The translations under genes were made by a program, and so were the position numbers. DNA of 59,125 nucleotides, counting the filler, from Catajapyx aquilonaris (taxonomy: Eukaryota): assembly GCA_000934665.2 (NCBI GenBank). It is 2 parts of 2 records of this genome, joined end to end, with 100 filler letters (N's around TTAATTAATTAA, not from the genome) between each part and the next. Parts side by side here need not be neighbours in the genome. Positions count along the whole stretch, not along the records: positions 29,640 to 59,125 come from JYFJ02004786.1; 1 more part is not named here. The stretch is one strand, 5' to 3'. A model generated the notes under the pieces. The model saw only the letters and a list, made by a program, of their open reading frames with translations. It had not been told where the DNA came from and searched no databases. Positions 50,911 through 58,899 of this stretch are shown one piece after another; within the stretch, counting starts at the first letter, position 1; each line of letters opens with the position of its first letter.

Positions 50911-52445
50911 ACACACGGCCCATCACGTAGGCTACAAAAATGCAAACAGTATTGTAAGAAATTGGCCAGCCATCTAATGAATAACCTAATAAAACGAGCA
51001 GAACTTAATTCGTCATGATGTCGGGAGGAATGGGACGTCCCATACCTCACTGCCCTGCTTTGTCCCATTCCTCCCGAATAGCTCAAAATTGTAAAAATGG
51101 CTGGCTTGCTTTTACAGAAGGAAGCATGGCAGACTATCATATCCAGCTTTATCTCAGGAAACATACACCATCCCACAGCCCCTTGTTCGACAAGTCTATC
51201 TGCATTATATGTACTTCAAACTGCATTCAAACATTATAACAAAAACTTGCTTCTTAATGGCCAAATCACTTATTTTATACCAGGCTGAAAACCTCTTCCA
51301 CTAACTCACAAGCTCAGACTGGAGTTGATGCCTAGTGACACCTACCAGCCACCAAGTGCGAACTTGCTAGCACAAGAAAGCTGAAGGTGTCCCATACCTC
51401 CCCCGTCCCATACCTCCCGACTCTCCCCTATTGTTCCAAAGCTCCGACTAGGATGAGTGCGGGCACGAAGCCCCCCCTCCTTAAATACGTACATCACGCC
51501 ACTAGGCGGCACCACAGACGAGGTCGCGGGGGATGAATGCCGAAACCACACACTTGGTCCCGCCCCCACTTAAAAAAAAACTTGAAGCGACACCGCTCCA
51601 ACGCACCTTAAAACAATTTCAAAGAGCACAAGGACACTGCCTAAACAAGTTCAATCCGTGCACTATCAGGCACAAAAAGTTCAATCCGACGGCAGCACAC
51701 ACAGCAGCGCTGCACCACCTTACTCCTGCATGACCCGTTCTTCATCCGACGTAGAAACGTCGTCTGGCCGGCCATCCCCAGCGACGTTGTCACCAACCAG
51801 ATTCCACCCCGGAATAGGCGGAGGCACCGCAGACGAGGTCGCGGGGGATGAATGCCGAAACCACACGCGTGGTCCCGACAATACCGAGCAATGGCGCTTG
51901 GAGGTGTGGCTTGAAATTCTGGTGTCTGGTGCGGGCCACTCCATTGTTAGGGGTTTTCCAGGAAGTGGTTCATTCTGCATGATTCCCTCCGCAGTGGCAT
52001 AGCATTCGACACGCTTTGCTGACATATTTACGAAGTGCTTCCTGAGATCACGGTCTCGCGAAACATTTCTCTGCTGGAAGGCATACTCGCATGGCAGCTT
52101 GTGCTGATCCCAGAGTAGACTGGCAACAGTGTGCGTCCATCGTCTTTGTGGCAGAACATGCACCCCCCTTGCGCTTTTGGAACGGTCACCACACTTGTAG
52201 GTTGATTCAGTCAGTCGAAGTTCCTCCCATATATGCGGGGTGATGTCACAATGAAGGTCTTCGTCGGCCTTACTGCAGTCTGTCCAGAGTCACTGCTGTC
52301 ACTGTACTTTTGCACATCTTCAGACTCCGAGTCGCTGACGAGGGTGACGGTGTCTGCTTGTATCCCCAGAAGTGCCTGAAACTCCGTCCTTACATCCCAC
52401 CGGTCCTGTCCTCATTCACGCAGACCCTAGCATACTTGGGTGTCA

Positions 52446-53005
52446 TCAAACCATCCAGGAGTTCACTAATATCATGTAGTTAGCCGGGGGAACTGGACTG
52501 CCATCACTCTGTAGGATACCCTGGACCTCATGAAGAACGCTCAGAAACTTGTCCGCCGTCGAGGTCAATTGTGGATTTGCTGCAGCTTGGAGGTCTTGGG
52601 CTGTCTCGGCCCCCGAAGTACTGGCAGTAACGGCAGCAGGTAAATCGGAGGTGGTTGCACCCCCTAACGATTCCTGCGCAGTGCTCACAAGTGCTTCCAG
52701 CTGCCCGACTCCCTCTTGGAAAGTAAGAACGAGCGTCGGAATTGCGTTCGCAAAGTTCTCCAGGCCCTGGGCAGCTGATCCTATCGTCGCAGCTGTCTGG
52801 CTCGTGATCTCGGTTAACGATGCAGTCGAGATGATGGAAGAGGCTGTCGTCGCAGTTACAATCCTTGTCGCTTGATTCACTGCTCTGGCGACGCTGGCGC
52901 TTTTCTTTGCCGCTGTTGTTATCGACGCCGCCCACTTGTCCAACGTCGACTGGCCGCTTAGCGGAGGTGGCTCGAACCGGGGTTTCTTGGCTGGTGGTCC
53001 ATCCG
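52446..53005 (-). CDS. Parvoviral NP/NS2-like ORF overlapping the NS1 3' end (predicted second exon)
   Basis: Open alternative frame DGPPAKKPRF...LDKWAAS...WMV-stop with no ATG near its 5' end, preceded by acceptor tttcaatag at 53006-53014. Confidence 0.6.
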
Positions 53006-54405
53006 CTATTGAAAGTATACAGATACATGCGATTCCTAAGTGGTTGCTCCTGGGCCGTACAATAATGCCAGGGATAATGATTACAGGTTATGATAATAGG
53101 AGTTCTAGGAAGGGTTTGGGACCCCTTGTTCTTGATGGCAATGGACGCGGGCATGCCTTCAAAGATGAGTTTGCACGTTTCGGCCGTCTGGATGTTAATG
53201 AGAGGCTCTTCCCAGAATGCAATGTCCGAGTCCAGGGCGTTCGCGAAGCTAAAGTGATTTTCGTTCAGGAGCTCTCCGACTTTAAATAATCCCGTGAGGC
53301 CCCGTATGAAGGCGGATTTGCCGGTATTACTTGGACCGTATAGACAGATGACATTTTGTTTGGTATCGTCTTTCTGAATCCACCGCGCAAAGTCAAAATC
53401 GAAGTCGTCTGTATTAATGTCCTGGTGCTCCAGAACCGCGTGGATGGTACTTGGATCCGCCGAGTATTTATCGAGGATATGTTTTACCGATCGCCCGGTA
53501 TGTTCCTGACGCAGGTATCGACGGCAATTGTCTACTACACCATGCTGATTTGGATAGGCCACGTATTGCATCGCGAATGCGGGATCTACTTTGCATATGG
53601 TGTCAAAATCGTGTGCTCGATGTTCTCGCATGATGCTAATAACTTTGGTAACAAGCGGATTAGTTTTCTTTTCGGTCGGATCCCATAATGCTTTTCCCGA
53701 TCCCGCGCCGCTAGCCATGTATGCCATGTCTATGAGCTGTTCGCTGGTTGTAAGCACCTGTATAGGCTGTTTCACGATGTATTTGAATATTCCCTGGAAG
53801 CTATTGACCCGCTGCTGTTTGATCGCTCCTATTATGCCGCAAGCCGATGCCTTGCCCCAAATGCGACGATGCCATGCGTCCGTGCGCATGGCCGTTTTGA
53901 CAAGGGCGTGACAGTGGTATTTACCGCGGTCGTTCACCTCTGTTACCATAATGTATGTTTCCAGATGGGGGCCGTGATTACCCATGAGGGTTAAAATAGT
54001 CTCGAAATCCAGTATGTCATCTATGTTATCGTATTCCATAACAACGCTAAGCCAGTCTTTGGAATTGTATTCCTGGAATGCCTCGTCCATATTTATGTTC
54101 CACTCGCCCGCCCAATCAACGCGTTCCAGGCCCGTCCCTAATCGTCCATTGTCATCAAGAATGTGGCAGCGATGGAGCCAGGGTGACCCGAGCAAATCCT
54201 GCTCAAGAGTGGGTAATTTTCCTCGGACGGGATTTCGAACAATCGGTACCACTGGAGCCCTTGGATTCCCAACCCCGATATCAGCCCCCTCAGCGTCGCC
54301 GTCTTGTATTGAGTCGGCAGATGAACGAGCAGCAGCTCCGGCGCTAGTGGGACTACCTTCGCTCCAACCAAGAACCTTAGAACGCCCTCGATGTCTTCCA
54401 GGCAT
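52528..54405 (-). CDS. NS1: Endogenous parvovirus NS1 replicase (Hamaparvovirinae, chaphamaparvovirus-like), intact 625-aa ORF from the first ATG
   Basis: HUH endonuclease (GKYHCHALV; FKYIVK) and SF3 helicase (Walker A GPSNTGKS, Walker B FWEEP, motif C IIITCN, plus FEGM...K.K...LPRTP and YPW.YCT..E..LRNRM). Confidence 0.93.
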   Translation of the reverse strand: MPGRHRGRSKVLGWSEGSPTSAGAAARSSADSIQDGDAEGADIGVGNPRAPVVPIVRNPVRGKLPTLEQDLLGSPWLHRCHILDDNGRLGTGLERVDWAGEWNINMDEAFQEYNSKDWLSVVMEYDNIDDILDFETILTLMGNHGPHLETYIMVTEVNDRGKYHCHALVKTAMRTDAWHRRIWGKASACGIIGAIKQQRVNSFQGIFKYIVKQPIQVLTTSEQLIDMAYMASGAGSGKALWDPTEKKTNPLVTKVISIMREHRAHDFDTICKVDPAFAMQYVAYPNQHGVVDNCRRYLRQEHTGRSVKHILDKYSADPSTIHAVLEHQDINTDDFDFDFARWIQKDDTKQNVICLYGPSNTGKSAFIRGLTGLFKVGELLNENHFSFANALDSDIAFWEEPLINIQTAETCKLIFEGMPASIAIKNKGSQTLPRTPIIITCNHYPWHYCTAQEQPLRNRMYLYTFNSGWTTSQETPVRATSAKRPVDVGQVGGVDNNSGKEKRQRRQSSESSDKDCNCDDSLFHHLDCIVNRDHEPDSCDDRISCPGPGELCERNSDARSYFPRGSRAAGSTCEHCAGIVRGCNHLRFTCCRYCQYFGGRDSPRPPSCSKSTIDLDGGQVSERSS

Positions 54406-54512
54406 TCGGACAGTTTCTTGGATGACCCGGTGCACTGGACAAGAGAAAGAATGATAGTGCACGTAGATTGGGGTTCGCTAGACATGGAGGCCATGCGTTT
54501 TTTAGCGGCCAT
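54138..54512 (-). CDS. Small 124-aa parvoviral ORF overlapping the NS1 5' end (p15-like position)
   Basis: ATG-initiated and stop-free. Size and position match the small ORF overlapping the NS1 start in chaphamaparvoviruses. Homology not verified. Confidence 0.55.
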   Translation of the reverse strand: MAAKKRMASMSSEPQSTCTIILSLVQCTGSSKKLSECLEDIEGVLRFLVGAKVVPLAPELLLVHLPTQYKTATLRGLISGLGIQGLQWYRLFEIPSEENYPLLSRICSGHPGSIAATFLMTMDD

Positions 54513-54820
54513 GAGTACTCACTGTCTTTAGGCTTTGAGGTTGTTGACCTCGCGGGCAACTCCCGATTGGGATTATTGTGACGCCACAGAAGATATGTGC
54601 GGATGTTTCCCAGTTGCTGCGCCGCCCACTGCGTTTCTACAGTCCAGGTTCGCAGAGGCTCCGGGCTGTCCAATATATCCTGCCACACACGTAACTGTTC
54701 TTGAAAACCCAAATCCGGATTGAAACTGTCTGCTAAATCCGGTAAGTATTGTAGATGCCGATACCCGACGTTGACGTAATAATCTCTTATAGCTCCGGAC
54801 TGTTTGGGGTTTCGAGCCAT
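54377..54820 (-). CDS. First parvoviral ORF (147 aa unspliced; 54523-54820 is the predicted first exon of NS2/NP)
   Basis: ATG directly after the CAGT initiator; internal donor GACA|GTGAGT at 54522. Confidence 0.55.
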   Translation of the reverse strand: MARNPKQSGAIRDYYVNVGYRHLQYLPDLADSFNPDLGFQEQLRVWQDILDSPEPLRTWTVETQWAAQQLGNIRTYLLWRHNNPNRELPARSTTSKPKDSEYSWPLKNAWPPCLANPNLRALSFFLLSSAPGHPRNCPNAWKTSRAF

Positions 54821-54854
54821 ACTGGCCGTGTAATCTATGTACTCCCTTATATAG
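54821..54854 (-). promoter_or_regulatory. Viral core promoter (TATA plus Inr)
   Basis: Minus-strand TATATAAG at 54853-54846. CCAGT initiator with its A at 54823, 30 nt downstream, abutting the ATG at 54820. Confidence 0.65.
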
Positions 54855-55072
54855 CCTTTATCGTGTGTGGTGCCGTGCTAGCCGCGGGTTGCCCGTCTAC
54901 TAGGGGTCGGTATCTACAATACTACACATACACACAGGCACGCCGAAGGAGGGGACCAGAGAGGGCCTCCGGTCGTACACTGAAAGCGAGATGTAAGAGG
55001 GGCTCTGGCAAGGGTTTTTAGACAAGGGGGTGGTAGCGGTGAGGGAGCGGACAGGGATTGGAACGAGTTCAA

Positions 55073-55384
55073 TCAAGGGTCTGCGGGGGAGGGGAGGGGG
55101 GAGGACCAGGCGGAGCTTGGCGGGGAGGAAAGGTGGAGGAGGAGGAAGGGGCCTGCTGCTGGGTGGTGGGCGGCGGCCTGGCGAACCAGTTCTTGATGCC
55201 AACGCTTGGCAGCCTCCAGTCGGATGACCGCTCGGAGTGCCACCTGGTTGGAGTACTCCCGGTCAATGGCTTCCTGGGCAGCGTCGGCGGCGATCTGGTC
55301 GGAGTTTTGCTGCCGCTTCTTAGCCCGGGTCTGTTGGCCGCCCCGGCAGCCCCGCTTTGTCTTGTTGGTCTCTCCTTTTGGCAT
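55073..55384 (-). other. Basic 103-aa ORF of unknown function
   Basis: ATG start, KRGCRGG basic N-terminus and helical-looking middle. No family recognised. Confidence 0.3.
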
Positions 55385-55978
55385 GGGTGAGGGGGCCTTA
55401 GCAGCCCGAAGGCGCTTAGGTGGGTGTGTGTGGTTCGGTGGTTCCCAGCTGCCCGAAGGCGCTTAGGTGGGTGGGAGAGGAGGCTGAACGTGGAAGATCA
55501 AAACAAAGGCGAAACAACACCTTCTTTTCTCCTCTTAACTTCGGCTCTGGCTTCTACTACTGCTATCAGACTCTTGCCTGAGCCTGGCCCAACTAGCTCT
55601 CTGAAAAGGGGTTCTATCTGCAAGGATAGATCCAGAAATTCAGGACCACAATGTATTTTCACTCAGTCCAATACAATAAGGACCGGCTCCCACCGAGCCC
55701 GGCCCCCAACTGCCCTTTTTCCCTCACTCCAGAGTATAGAACAACTCCCGGTGGGAGGAACATCAGGATGGGGGGGAACACCGGCGCGCGCAGCCACACC
55801 ACCGCGGCACCCCCACACAGTCACATACTTGGCTAACCCCCATCCTGATAATTCCCCCCGCCAATACAAGTGCGAAAGCACACATGGACATGCATACAAA
55901 AGCAACACCCAGCACACACTGGCAACTGCACGTCCCTGTGTCCTTTTTTTTCTTCTTCTTCTTCAACACCGGCCCCCG

Positions 55979-56626
55979 CTACTCCTGATCGCGGAGAATG
56001 GCCTCCTCCTGATCCTCCATCTCCTCTACGTTCCCGCCGTCCTCGTCCAGGAACCGGCCCGGGGTCGGTGGTGGCTGCTTCCTCCCCTCCGCCAACTCCC
56101 GCAGCCGATGCACCTCCATACGATACTGCAGAGCGATGCTGGTAACCTGGCCGACCAGCATCTCAGGAGATACCGCAGGTCCTCCTGGCGAGATGCCGAG
56201 TAATGCGAGGGACGCCCTTTGCTCTTCCTGTTGCGCCAGGCGCCTCTCCTCCTCCAGCCTCTTTCTCGCTGCAAACATCTGGGTCTTCCTCCACTTGAGG
56301 TAGGCCCCCGGTGCCAAGTTATGCACCAGGGGCTCCTCCGGCTCCACCAGGACCAGAACCGGACCAGGTCCATCGTCGGCCTCCTCCTCCTCTTCTGCAG
56401 TCCGGTAACTGGTCCCCGCTGGCGCCGTGCCCTCCCTCGGGTGTGAGCAGGGCAGGTCCTTGGCGATCTCACGGGCCACCGCCATCCTGGAGAACAGAAA
56501 GTCCCGCTCCACAAAAGTGTGGCCCACCAACACAGAGCCGCCCATTTTTCCTCTGCTTCCCTCCACGGCTCCGGGAATGAGCCCGCTCCCGGGAGGAAGA
56601 TGGCCCTCTCTTGCCACCACCCCCAC
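55979..56626 (-). other. Charged, coiled-coil-like ORF of unknown function downstream of the integrase
   Basis: 215-codon open frame with ARKRLEEERRLAQQEEQR and acidic tracts. No family recognised. Confidence 0.3.
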
Positions 56627-57441
56627 GCTGCCCCTTGGCGGCCCCGCTGTAAGTCTTCTTGGAACCAGAAATTTCTCCAGTCATGGTGCCAGCCATCCTG
56701 CTCAGTAGCAACTTTGCAAGTGAGAAAAAGGATGCTGAGAACCGAGCTATATCAACCCACTCCTCCGTGGTGACCAAGCTCGCCCCGCCCCCGTTCTTCT
56801 CATTCGTCAATAAGCAAATAAAGAAAAAAAAGGGGGTGACAAGTGGTCCAGAAACGACTTCTGAATCATCGAGTCACCCTCCGACATGTATCCGGAGGAC
56901 ACCTGCAGTTCTCAACGGCTTCTTCTCCCCCTTCCTTCCACAAGTCACACAGGTCAACCACCCTTTTTCAACTTCTGGAAGCGGGGGTGTGGATAGGAAG
57001 TCCACCTGACACCCTACCCTCCCTTCTGATACGACCCCGCCCTACCCAGAAGGGTCCCCTTTCTCGTTCCGTGAACGGGTTTTGGGGTAATCGCGGGTCA
57101 AGGGCCTCGACCCTTGTTCCCACCATCATATGCCGCAGGACTTTTCTTTTCGTAAACGAAAAGTAGTGGGGCATGGCCCTCATCACCAACCCCCCCTTTC
57201 CGATAAGTCGCGTTAAGCCTTCAACCCTTCCTCGGCTTATCAACATCCTGTAACCAGGAGTGTGGCCGGGTCGCCCCCAAACCATCCCCCTCGTTTCCTG
57301 GTAGGCTTCCCCTACCCAAAAACAAGTTGCCTCTATTTTCGACCCGAAAACAGAAACTTGTCATTCAAGGACGCCAACCCTTGCTCCAACAGCCAAAATG
57401 CGTGTGAACCCACATTCTTACCCCCCTCTTTTTTTTCTTTT

Positions 57442-58899
57442 TCAGATGGGGTCTTTTTTTTCTTCCGCCCAACCGGGAGGAAAAAAAAAAATGCGAGTAA
57501 CTCCACGGTATGCACCGCGCATTACTTTCTCNTACTTTCTCACAACGGCACCCCGCGGGGGCACATATTTCTTTAAGTCCGAAATATGAATTGGTCCGAA
57601 AACCTTTTTCGTGACCGGGTTATGCAACATGTATGAAACATCATGCACACGTTTAACCACGTCGTATGGACCATCATACTTATGCGCGAGAGCTCGTGTG
57701 AACCCTTGCGCCGCGTTTGATAGCGCGTGACATTTACGCAGTACCAAATCACCAACATTAAAAATGCCATGTCGTCTTTTGCGATCATAATATTTTTTCT
57801 GTTTTTTCCGTTCCGCAATAATGCGGGCACGTGCAAATGCAATTGATTTCGCCATACGGAGTTTTAGACCGTCTGCATAATCCCGCACCTGCTCCTCTGA
57901 TGCATTATCTACTGCCTTAAGATATTGCGACTCAAACGGGAGGAGGAACTGCCTCCCTGTTGCTAATTCAGCGGGGGAGTAGCCACTCACAATGGATGGT
58001 GATGAACGCCATGCGTACATTACCGACCCCAATGTCTTACACCAATCATGATGCTCATGAGTGTAAGCGATTAACAGCCGTTTAATTTGGCTATTTACCG
58101 TTTCTGTCATGTTTTGCCATGGGCTGTATACGTTCGAAAACGATGCTTTTATGCCCAACGCCGCACATGTTGACATGAATATTTTCCCGCGGTAATACTT
58201 TGCATTATCACCAATTAATCTTTTCGCGTAACCATGATGCGTACAGAAGTCTACCAAACACTCAGTAACCTGAGTCCGAGCGCATACTCTCGTTAAAGGG
58301 TATGCCTCAAACCATTTTGACAGCTTACATACGATCACCAGTATGTATTTCTTGCCCCCTTTGCTGCGCACCAGGGGGCCGATGACGTCAGTGGCAATGT
58401 CGGCAAATGCTTGGACAGGTGGCTCGCTTGGTTGCAACAACCCCGGAGGCTTACACCTATCCACCGTTGTCCTCTGGCAAAGGTCGTATCGCTTCGTGAA
58501 GTTCATTACATCTTTTTTCTGGCCGATCCAAGAAAACAGGTGCCTCATGCGTTTGATCGTACGGTACGATCCCCAGTGTCCAACCTTATTGTCGGAATGA
58601 TAAGCATGCATGACCTTGTCCCTCATTGCCCGAGGAACAATGACCTTGAACGGGTTATAATCTGGCGAATTACCAGCTTTTTCACCCCCGGGGATATACT
58701 CAGCAATGAGCCCGGAATTATTGATCAGGTACATGTGCTGGTCCGTCTTAAGTCTCGCAATGGCACCTGCGTCCATTTCCACGCCGCGGGCTCCTTGTAG
58801 GTGCTCCCGCAGCGCTTTTAAATCTGCGTCAACTTTTTGACATTCCAGCAATTCCTTGAGATCAATGCCCCCAGTCCCCTCGTCACGGAGTGGAGACAA
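57442..58899 (-). mobile_element. Ty3/Gypsy integrase region (pol 3' part)
   Basis: Zinc-binding YH...GHWG...YDLCQ (first Cys replaced by Tyr). Catalytic DIATDV / GDNA / MTE. C-terminal KYDGPY.V...HISDLKKY. Confidence 0.92.

What the first reader, a model, noticed from the sequence alone, without database searches (positions are those of the whole stretch)
52446..54820. Predicted in-frame splice joining viral ORF1 to the NP frame (285-aa NS2/NP protein)
The donor GAC A|GTGAGT (54523/54522, phase 1) and acceptor tttcaatAG|CG GAT (53006/53005, phase 1) join 298 + 560 nt = 286 codons including the stop. This supplies a start to a frame with no 5' ATG and places an NLS-like PPAKKPRF just after the junction. 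A spliced NS2/NP is known in vertebrate chaphamaparvoviruses, so its retention here would suggest a conserved expression strategy. The element is unspliced and keeps its TATA box, which argues for DNA-level integration rather than retrotransposition of a spliced mRNA.
Basis: partly seen in the sequence, partly recalled or inferred. Interest (0 to 1): 0.72.

Follow-up and report, generated by a model that had tools for sequence, protein, structure and literature searches.

The report
Spliced gene in truncated parvovirus fossil
A broken-off piece of a parvovirus lodged in an arthropod genome still carries the splice signals that related mammal viruses use to make their NS2 protein, suggesting this gene-expression trick is older and wider than amniote viruses, but the protein predicted here ends in unrelated host DNA.

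Summary
The donor (54523|54522), acceptor (53006|53005), phases and 286-codon sum are as stated. The element is a single-copy, 3'-truncated chapparvovirus-like insertion (about 54937-52554, minus strand, no capsid gene) in a transposon nest of an arthropod genome. The splice is very probably the source virus's NS2 splice. It matches the mapped MKPV NS2 intron in layout: leader ORF, phase-1 donor just before the p15-position ATG, intron of 1517 nt (amniote viruses 1612-1685), phase-1 acceptor just after the helicase. A fish-type virus and metagenome relatives show the same layout. The NP frame is a true homologue, is under purifying selection, and has no 5' ATG. The donor is unlikely by chance (0.6-2.6%); the acceptor alone is weak (47% under a coding-aware control). 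Correction: the 285-aa protein is not a viral protein. Its last 35 residues and its stop lie in a host repeat, and about 100 residues of NP are missing. Extra prediction: the same donor with a stronger acceptor (54434, 88-nt intron) joins the leader to NS1. No RNA evidence was obtained. A known mechanism in a new host range; modest interest.

The parts
54847..54853 (-). TATA box (TATATAA), 30 nt before an initiator-like A at 54823
   Evidence: function inferred from spacing
54821..54825 (-). initiator-like CCAGT; predicted start 54823, leaving a 3-nt 5' leader
   Evidence: the arthropod initiator consensus is recalled, not from a call
54523..54820 (-). leader ORF / predicted exon 1 (99 codons + 1 nt); unspliced, the frame runs to 54377 (147 aa). 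Positional equivalent of MKPV p10 / NS2 exon 1; no sequence homology detected
   Evidence: a sister-virus piece differs 8 synonymous / 6 non-synonymous in this frame
54517..54522 (-). splice donor GTGAGT, phase 1, 10 nt before the p15-position ATG; best of 30 GT sites in the 500 nt after the leader ATG
54138..54512 (-). 124-aa ORF in the p15/ORF1 position (+1 frame to NS1); first ATG after the leader ATG; homology not detected
54434..54452 (-). second predicted acceptor (13 of 15 pyrimidines, strongest in the element); an 88-nt intron from the same donor puts the leader in the NS1 frame
52528..54477 (-). NS1 frame (HUH endonuclease + SF3 helicase), open, C-terminally truncated; last 26 nt incl. 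stop are host repeat
53006..53023 (-). predicted NS2 acceptor (10 of 15 pyrimidines, TAG), phase 1, exon starts 32 nt after the NS1 RNRM motif start
52554..53005 (-). viral part of NP / NS2 exon 2 (about 150 codons), with KKPR motif and the conserved GATT..QDL..PQL block; broken at 52553
51881..52553 (-). host multi-copy repeat (coding exon of an unnamed element), entered in mid-exon
54938..54981 (-). 44-nt internal piece of another host repeat (100% to 3 loci, 95% to 4), patched into the 5' junction
54997..55564 (-). host repeat, cut short at the 5' junction (83-92% to other copies)
55564..58886 (-). 3' half of a Gypsy-type retrotransposon (integrase, extra ORF, LTR-like end about 55564-55850)

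Best explanation
The stretch is the left 2.4 kb of a chapparvovirus-lineage (Hamaparvovirinae) genome, captured as DNA in an arthropod transposon nest, probably during break repair, and cut off inside NS1/NP. In the source virus one promoter made a pre-mRNA whose short leader ORF ends at a phase-1 donor. Splicing to 53005 gave the two-exon NS2/NP, as in MKPV transcript 3. Splicing to 54434 probably gave leader-NS1, and leaky scanning on unspliced RNA gave the p15-position protein. Shown: sites, phases, frames, NP homology, selection on NP, truncation, host origin of the tail. Inferred: use of the splices, leaky scanning, repair-type capture. In the host the copy is most likely a young, unused fossil; if it were transcribed and spliced, the product would be a 250-aa viral + 35-aa host chimera.
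For: Layout table: phase-1 donor 6-34 nt before the p15-position ATG and intron 1517-1663 nt in the window and 5 of 5 viral contigs tabulated (phase computable for 4 of these 5). Introns of L055-L058 equal the published values; all 12 published amniote NS2 introns are 1612-1685 nt, drawn with the junction inside a codon. The best-scoring GT after the leader ATG is phase 1 in 3 of 3 non-amniote cases (window, L064, L065). NP homology: 25.7 and 35.6 bits, 0 of 1000 shuffles reaching it; homology of relatives starts at their predicted acceptors. Selection: sister-virus pieces differ 14 syn / 5 non-syn and 11 / 10 in the NP frame against 1 / 14 and 1 / 21 in the NS1 frame, yet NP has no 5' ATG. 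No ATG in the 305 nt between the leader and p15-position ATGs (P about 0.007). Acceptor 54434: chance 1.7% / 0.5%. 16 of 175 fetched proteins match a profile of the p10-like leader at their N-terminus. One 2472-nt contig at flank-like depth covers 52496-54967.
Against: No RNA read shows either junction. The 53005 acceptor is matched by 47% of synonymous recodings; it lies 32 nt after the RNR motif, against 59-62 in amniote viruses, 23 in L064 and 41-44 in metagenome relatives, which also hold other phase-1 YAGs nearby. The donor has a poor exon side (ACA). The leader and p15-position ORFs show no sequence homology to any relative, so their equivalence is positional. For L064 and L065 I picked the donors by consensus, so their top rank is circular; only the phase is a test (about 1 in 27 for three). 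PMC6631224 predicted that genomes with an ORF2 homologue lack the large introns. No NS2/NP peptide was found even in MKPV. No close relative (best NS1 identity 34-38% over long matches) was available for site-by-site alignment.
Confidence: 0.75

Rival explanations
1. NP is real but is reached another way: a different acceptor or donor, or a non-AUG start in 53087-53005. The named acceptor is then a by-product of NS1 codons.
For: 47% chance rate of the acceptor; other phase-1 YAGs at 53035 and 52990 (7 and 6 of 15 pyrimidines); the NP frame is open 27 codons upstream of the acceptor; PMC6999912 leaves unspliced NP open.
Against: 53005 is the best phase-1 YAG of those listed near the motif; the donor is the best in the region and in the right place and phase; the mapped MKPV transcript uses this layout.
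Confidence: 0.15
2. The host transcribes and splices the insertion and makes a chimeric NS2-repeat protein (or truncated NS1), possibly co-opted against the cognate virus.
For: All four frames are stop-free over the viral part; TATA and initiator-like site kept; the NP frame runs into the repeat's own coding frame.
Against: Sits among same-strand transposon remains; no AATAAA/ATTAAA on the minus strand down to 49500; in-frame entry has 1 in 3 chance, and the repeat copy is frame-shifted relative to L004, as are two other copies; intact frames fit a young insertion equally well.
Confidence: 0.08
3. The insertion arose through an RNA intermediate (reverse transcription of unspliced NS mRNA by the neighbouring Gypsy or a LINE) rather than from viral DNA.
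For: A Gypsy 3' half and LTR lie 0.6 kb upstream in the same orientation; a sister-virus piece on C5670 begins within 4 nt of the predicted start site.
Against: About 115 nt upstream of the predicted start, including TATA, are present and unique in the genome; no poly(A); both ends cut host repeats, with a 44-nt patch at one and a 2-3-nt overlap at the other. That 54937-54854 is viral is not proven.
Confidence: 0.1

Closest known systems
MKPV transcript 3 / NS2 of amniote chaphamaparvoviruses (PMC6999912)
   Same: Leader ORF, phase-1 donor a few nt before the p15 ATG (6-7 nt in three of the 12 published genomes, 10 nt here), intron about 1.5-1.7 kb over NS1, phase-1 acceptor after the helicase, NP in the +1 frame with the GATT..QDL..PQL block; an 88-nt small intron also exists in MKPV.
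   Different: Arthropod host; no sequence homology in leader or p15-position ORF; KKPR motif in exon 2 rather than exon 1; acceptor about 30 nt nearer the helicase; the small intron here would remove the p15-position ATG and join leader to NS1, whereas in MKPV it ends at the p15 ATG and uses another donor; NP truncated; no VP.
Fish-type chapparvovirus L064 (807-aa NS and 235-aa extra ORF, the sizes described for Syngnathus scovelli chapparvovirus in PMC6631224 and PMC12115719)
   Same: A|GTGAGT donor in phase 1, 6 nt before the next ATG; 1579-nt intron; phase-1 acceptor; NP without 5' ATG.
   Different: There the leader is the in-frame N-terminus of NS1, needing no small intron; NS1 only 31% identical to the window's.
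Invertebrate chapparvovirus-derived endogenous elements (13 listed in PMC6631224, e.g. ChPV.3-LatHes with ORF1-Lh, ORF1, NS, NP)
   Same: Host-flanked rep/NP remnants in arthropods, with small upstream ORFs and a promoter; one hexapod element is described with a C-terminally truncated intact rep and an NP.
   Different: The passages read give no leader-to-NP splice for them. Whether this locus is one of the 13 was not determined.

Membership tests
Parvoviridae NS1 | HUH endonuclease plus SF3 helicase | tested here: met
   Pfam Parvo_NS1 67.6 bits (cut-off 20); HxH, YxxK and GPSNTGKS aligned
Chapparvovirus lineage (Hamaparvovirinae) | NS1 closest to chapparvoviruses | tested here: met
   All named hits are chapparvo/chaphamaparvo-type viruses or a spider protein; 28-38% identity over long matches
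Chapparvovirus lineage (Hamaparvovirinae) | NP ORF overlapping the NS1 3' half in the +1 frame | tested here: met
   hhalign probability 94, E 1.3e-7; 0 of 1000 shuffles
Chapparvovirus lineage (Hamaparvovirinae) | short VP without PLA2; terminal hairpins | not testable with these tools
   Element ends before VP; no VP match in the window or in G000 with one amniote VP query; upstream 146 nt fold no better than shuffles (z -0.16)
Genus Chaphamaparvovirus | monophyly with amniote viruses | tested here: inconclusive
   Long branch (1.29), sister to a set that holds the amniote viruses at 94/89, below the starred threshold; no starred set holds it
Genus Chaphamaparvovirus | p15 homologue | tested here: not met
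   ORF in the right place and frame, but -1.9 bits with 262 of 1000 shuffles as good
MKPV-type two-exon NS2 | phase-1 donor in the leader ORF just before the p15 ATG | tested here: met
MKPV-type two-exon NS2 | phase-1 acceptor after the helicase opening the NP frame | tested here: inconclusive
   Present, but 47% expected under synonymous recoding
MKPV-type two-exon NS2 | exon 1 homologous to p10 (RQW..R motif, AKRPR) | tested here: not met
   No profile match; basic motif is in exon 2
MKPV-type two-exon NS2 | spliced transcript observed | not testable with these tools
   Only DNA contigs could be laid
Endogenous viral element | host-flanked, genome-level depth | tested here: met
   One 2472-nt contig crosses the 3' junction by 57 nt (5' junction by 30 nt); depth 32.6 against 21.7-27.7 for unique flank contigs in X1 (X1, X2, X4 are one sample, possibly the source)

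The most novel reading that the evidence does not exclude
A single phase-1 donor at the end of a short leader is the ancestral expression hub of the whole chapparvovirus lineage, in arthropod and fish viruses as well as amniote ones. The leader is the shared first exon of NS2 and of NS1: in frame with NS1 in many non-amniote viruses, and rejoined to it by an 88-nt intron in this one. This runs against the published in-silico view that ORF2-bearing genomes lack the large intron.
Probability: 0.55. Interest if true: 0.55.

Novelty: new member of a known kind. Interest (0 to 1): 0.42.

Why it matters
NS2 splicing is mapped in MKPV and predicted for 11 other amniote viruses; for tilapia parvovirus and others the papers read say only that splicing must be needed. 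Finding the same donor, phase and intron size in an arthropod fossil, a fish-type virus and metagenome relatives names exact junctions to look for. It also implies that many annotated 'NP' proteins lack their first exon and that the leader is shared with NS1. For the host the insertion is probably unimportant. The case also shows how a truncated insertion can borrow a stop from a flanking repeat and look like a whole gene.

Tried and rejected
No RNA holder listed for the stretch; a second-sample run (X5, 32 Mb) laid nothing: neither is evidence. Single-protein scan of viral contigs found no relative; alignments did. 5 of the 9 loci (L059-L063, weak helicase-only hits) were not examined. Of the 10 metagenome loci, 5 were scored for acceptors and 2 held a leader; L069, L071, L072, L074 were not scored. 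NP search in 5.8 billion proteins: nothing at E <= 1. Atlas search of the leader: only phage 'hypothetical' clusters at 0.90 with low recognition, rejected. Leader, p15-position ORF and NS1 N-terminal extension against 175 fetched proteins: no hit. Alignment A2 had L055 in the wrong frame and was replaced. AlphaFold of the NP piece: mean pLDDT 60.7, pTM 0.33, long helices; too poor for a fold search, not pursued. No hairpin upstream of TATA. No VP found with one query: not proof of absence. Pfam did not name the downstream host repeat. The genome fragments of the sister virus cover neither splice site. No earlier scan findings near this place. No trained splice-site model was available; scores are simple consensus and pyrimidine counts.

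Full report
Observation. On the minus strand the sequence reads ACA|GTGAGT at 54523/54522 and ...TTTCAATAG|CG at 53006/53005. The two pieces are 298 and 560 nt, both sites are phase 1, and the sum is 286 codons. The NP frame (53087-52446) has no ATG until 52475, and PPAKKPRF lies just after the acceptor. I checked frames by arithmetic on the separate exons.

What the element is. The 649-codon frame 54477-52528 is a parvoviral NS1 (Pfam Parvo_NS1 67.6 bits). Its named relatives are chapparvoviruses at 28-38% identity over long matches. In a 40-row tree it has a long branch next to a set holding the amniote viruses, at 94/89, short of firm support. The host is an arthropod: 66 matches to the cuticle motif Chitin_bind_4, none in 14 control genomes. 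The viral part is single-copy in G000. One 2472-nt contig covers 52496-54967 at flank-like depth in three runs of one sample.

The correction. DNA from 52553 down to 51881 is a host repeat, 87-92% identical to copies on three other contigs, which carry their own exon start instead of viral DNA. Aligned with nine relatives, the NP frame stops right after the conserved GATT..QDL..PQL block, with about 100 residues missing. A sister-virus piece on contig C2792 matches further into amniote NP (residues 65-151) than the window does (57-106). There is no VP and no AATAAA/ATTAAA down to 49500. The 285-aa protein never existed in the virus.

Is the splice real for the virus? PMC6999912 (passages, section 8, and parts 1, 5, 6 of supplement S5) mapped MKPV transcript 3. 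It lists 12 amniote NS2 introns of 1612-1685 nt, each from a donor shortly before the p15 ATG. Four amniote viruses fetched here gave introns of 1622, 1612, 1636 and 1663 nt, equal to the published values, which validates my landmarks. The window has the same layout: donor 10 nt before the p15-position ATG, intron 1517 nt. Outside amniotes, L064 has A|GTGAGT in phase 1, 6 nt before the next ATG, a 1579-nt intron, a phase-1 acceptor and an NP with no 5' ATG. L065 has a phase-1 CAG|GT and a 1690-nt intron; L070 has CAG|GT at the same place behind a frameshifted leader. Five of five metagenome loci scored have a phase-1 YAG 41-44 nt after the helicase motif, but also others nearby.

Strength of each part. 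The donor is the best of 30 GT sites after the leader ATG and arises in 0.56% (GTRAGT) or 2.6% (GTRAG) of shuffles. The acceptor is weak alone: 8.7% of plain shuffles and 47% of synonymous recodings. For L064 and L065 I chose donors by consensus, so only their phase is a test; 3 of 3 non-amniote best donors are phase 1. The need for a splice is well supported. NP is homologous to amniote and non-amniote NP (25.7 and 35.6 bits, 0 of 1000 shuffles; hhalign probability 94). Sister-virus pieces differ mostly at silent sites in the NP frame (14 synonymous / 5 not; 11 / 10) and not in the NS1 frame (1 / 14; 1 / 21), and the leader piece gives 8 / 6. Against: neither leader nor p15-position ORF shows sequence homology to relatives, and the basic motif is in exon 1 in the four amniote viruses but exon 2 here.

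A wider expression map (inferred). TATATAA at 54853 lies 30 nt before an initiator-like A at 54823, leaving a 3-nt leader. No ATG occurs in the 305 nt between 54820 and 54512 (P 0.006-0.008; amniote viruses have 1, 4 and 2, L064 none), which fits leaky scanning to the p15-position ORF. The strongest acceptor of the element is at 54434 (13 of 15 pyrimidines; chance 1.7% / 0.5%). With the same donor it defines an 88-nt intron that puts the leader in the NS1 frame. This fits relatives: in L064 and L065 the leader is in frame with NS1, and 16 of 175 fetched proteins start with a match to the p10-like leader profile.

How it got there. The 5' side is a patchwork: a host repeat cut at about 54995, a short filler, a 44-nt internal piece of another repeat (54981-54938), then about 115 unique nt with the TATA. 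The 3' side enters a repeat in mid-exon over 2-3 shared bases. There is no poly(A). Stop-free frames suggest a young insertion; host use is not shown.

Literature. PMC6631224 (abstract, two of seven parts, passages) lists 13 invertebrate elements, says that NP without an ATG implies splicing, and predicts that ORF2-bearing genomes lack the large introns. Its figures, which mark predicted splice sites, and its supplements were not seen and may already show some of these sites. I did not determine whether this locus is among the 13. PMC7588064 (passages) notes only that splicing is implied for tilapia parvovirus NP. Passages of PMC12115719, PMC12298888, PMC11357303 and bioRxiv 2022.12.13.520061 gave no non-amniote NS2 junction. 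Six searches of an open-access library found no paper giving one; subscription papers are not covered.

Verdict. The splice sites are real and most likely the source virus's NS2 splice (about 0.75); the 285-aa product is wrong; host expression is unlikely and untested. It is a known mechanism extended by prediction to arthropod and fish-type viruses. Interest 0.42.

Noticed in passing
G000:C5670, L007:1379-1837: Four closely spaced pieces (120, 116, 35 and 118 nt; 81-85% identical) of a sister virus in mixed orientation. It resembles the scrambled parvovirus clusters reported in shrimp (PMC9357335, search listing only); a possible piRNA source.
   Followed up: partly
G000:C2792, L008:1180-1760: Decayed NS1 mid-piece (stops, frameshifts) joined directly to an NP piece that runs past the point where the window's copy breaks off.
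   Followed up: partly
window:54434-54522: 88-nt predicted intron, same length as the small MKPV intron, but here joining the leader to the NS1 frame.
   Followed up: yes
window:45792-58917: Gypsy integrase, gag and zinc-knuckle ORFs, the viral insert and the flanking repeats all lie on the minus strand; could be a single-strand piRNA cluster.
   Followed up: no
window:52553-52470: The NP frame enters the host repeat in that repeat's own coding frame; this copy and two others lack 7 nt relative to L004, which closes the frame at 52446.
   Followed up: partly
L004:1480-2558: The downstream host repeat has a 359-codon open frame with no Pfam match; element type unknown.
   Followed up: partly
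L065:2933-5596 and L070:2920-5611: Host-flanked chapparvovirus-like elements in metagenome contigs (one beside a tubulin-like gene) with a clear p10-like leader in or near the NS1 frame.
   Followed up: partly
proteins P0037, P0061, P0058, P0079 and 12 more: Non-amniote NS1 proteins that begin with a p10-like leader motif; PMC6999912 had considered p10 limited to close MKPV relatives.
   Followed up: partly
window:51505-51562 and 51820-51877: 58-nt direct repeat (93%) just beyond the downstream host repeat.
   Followed up: no
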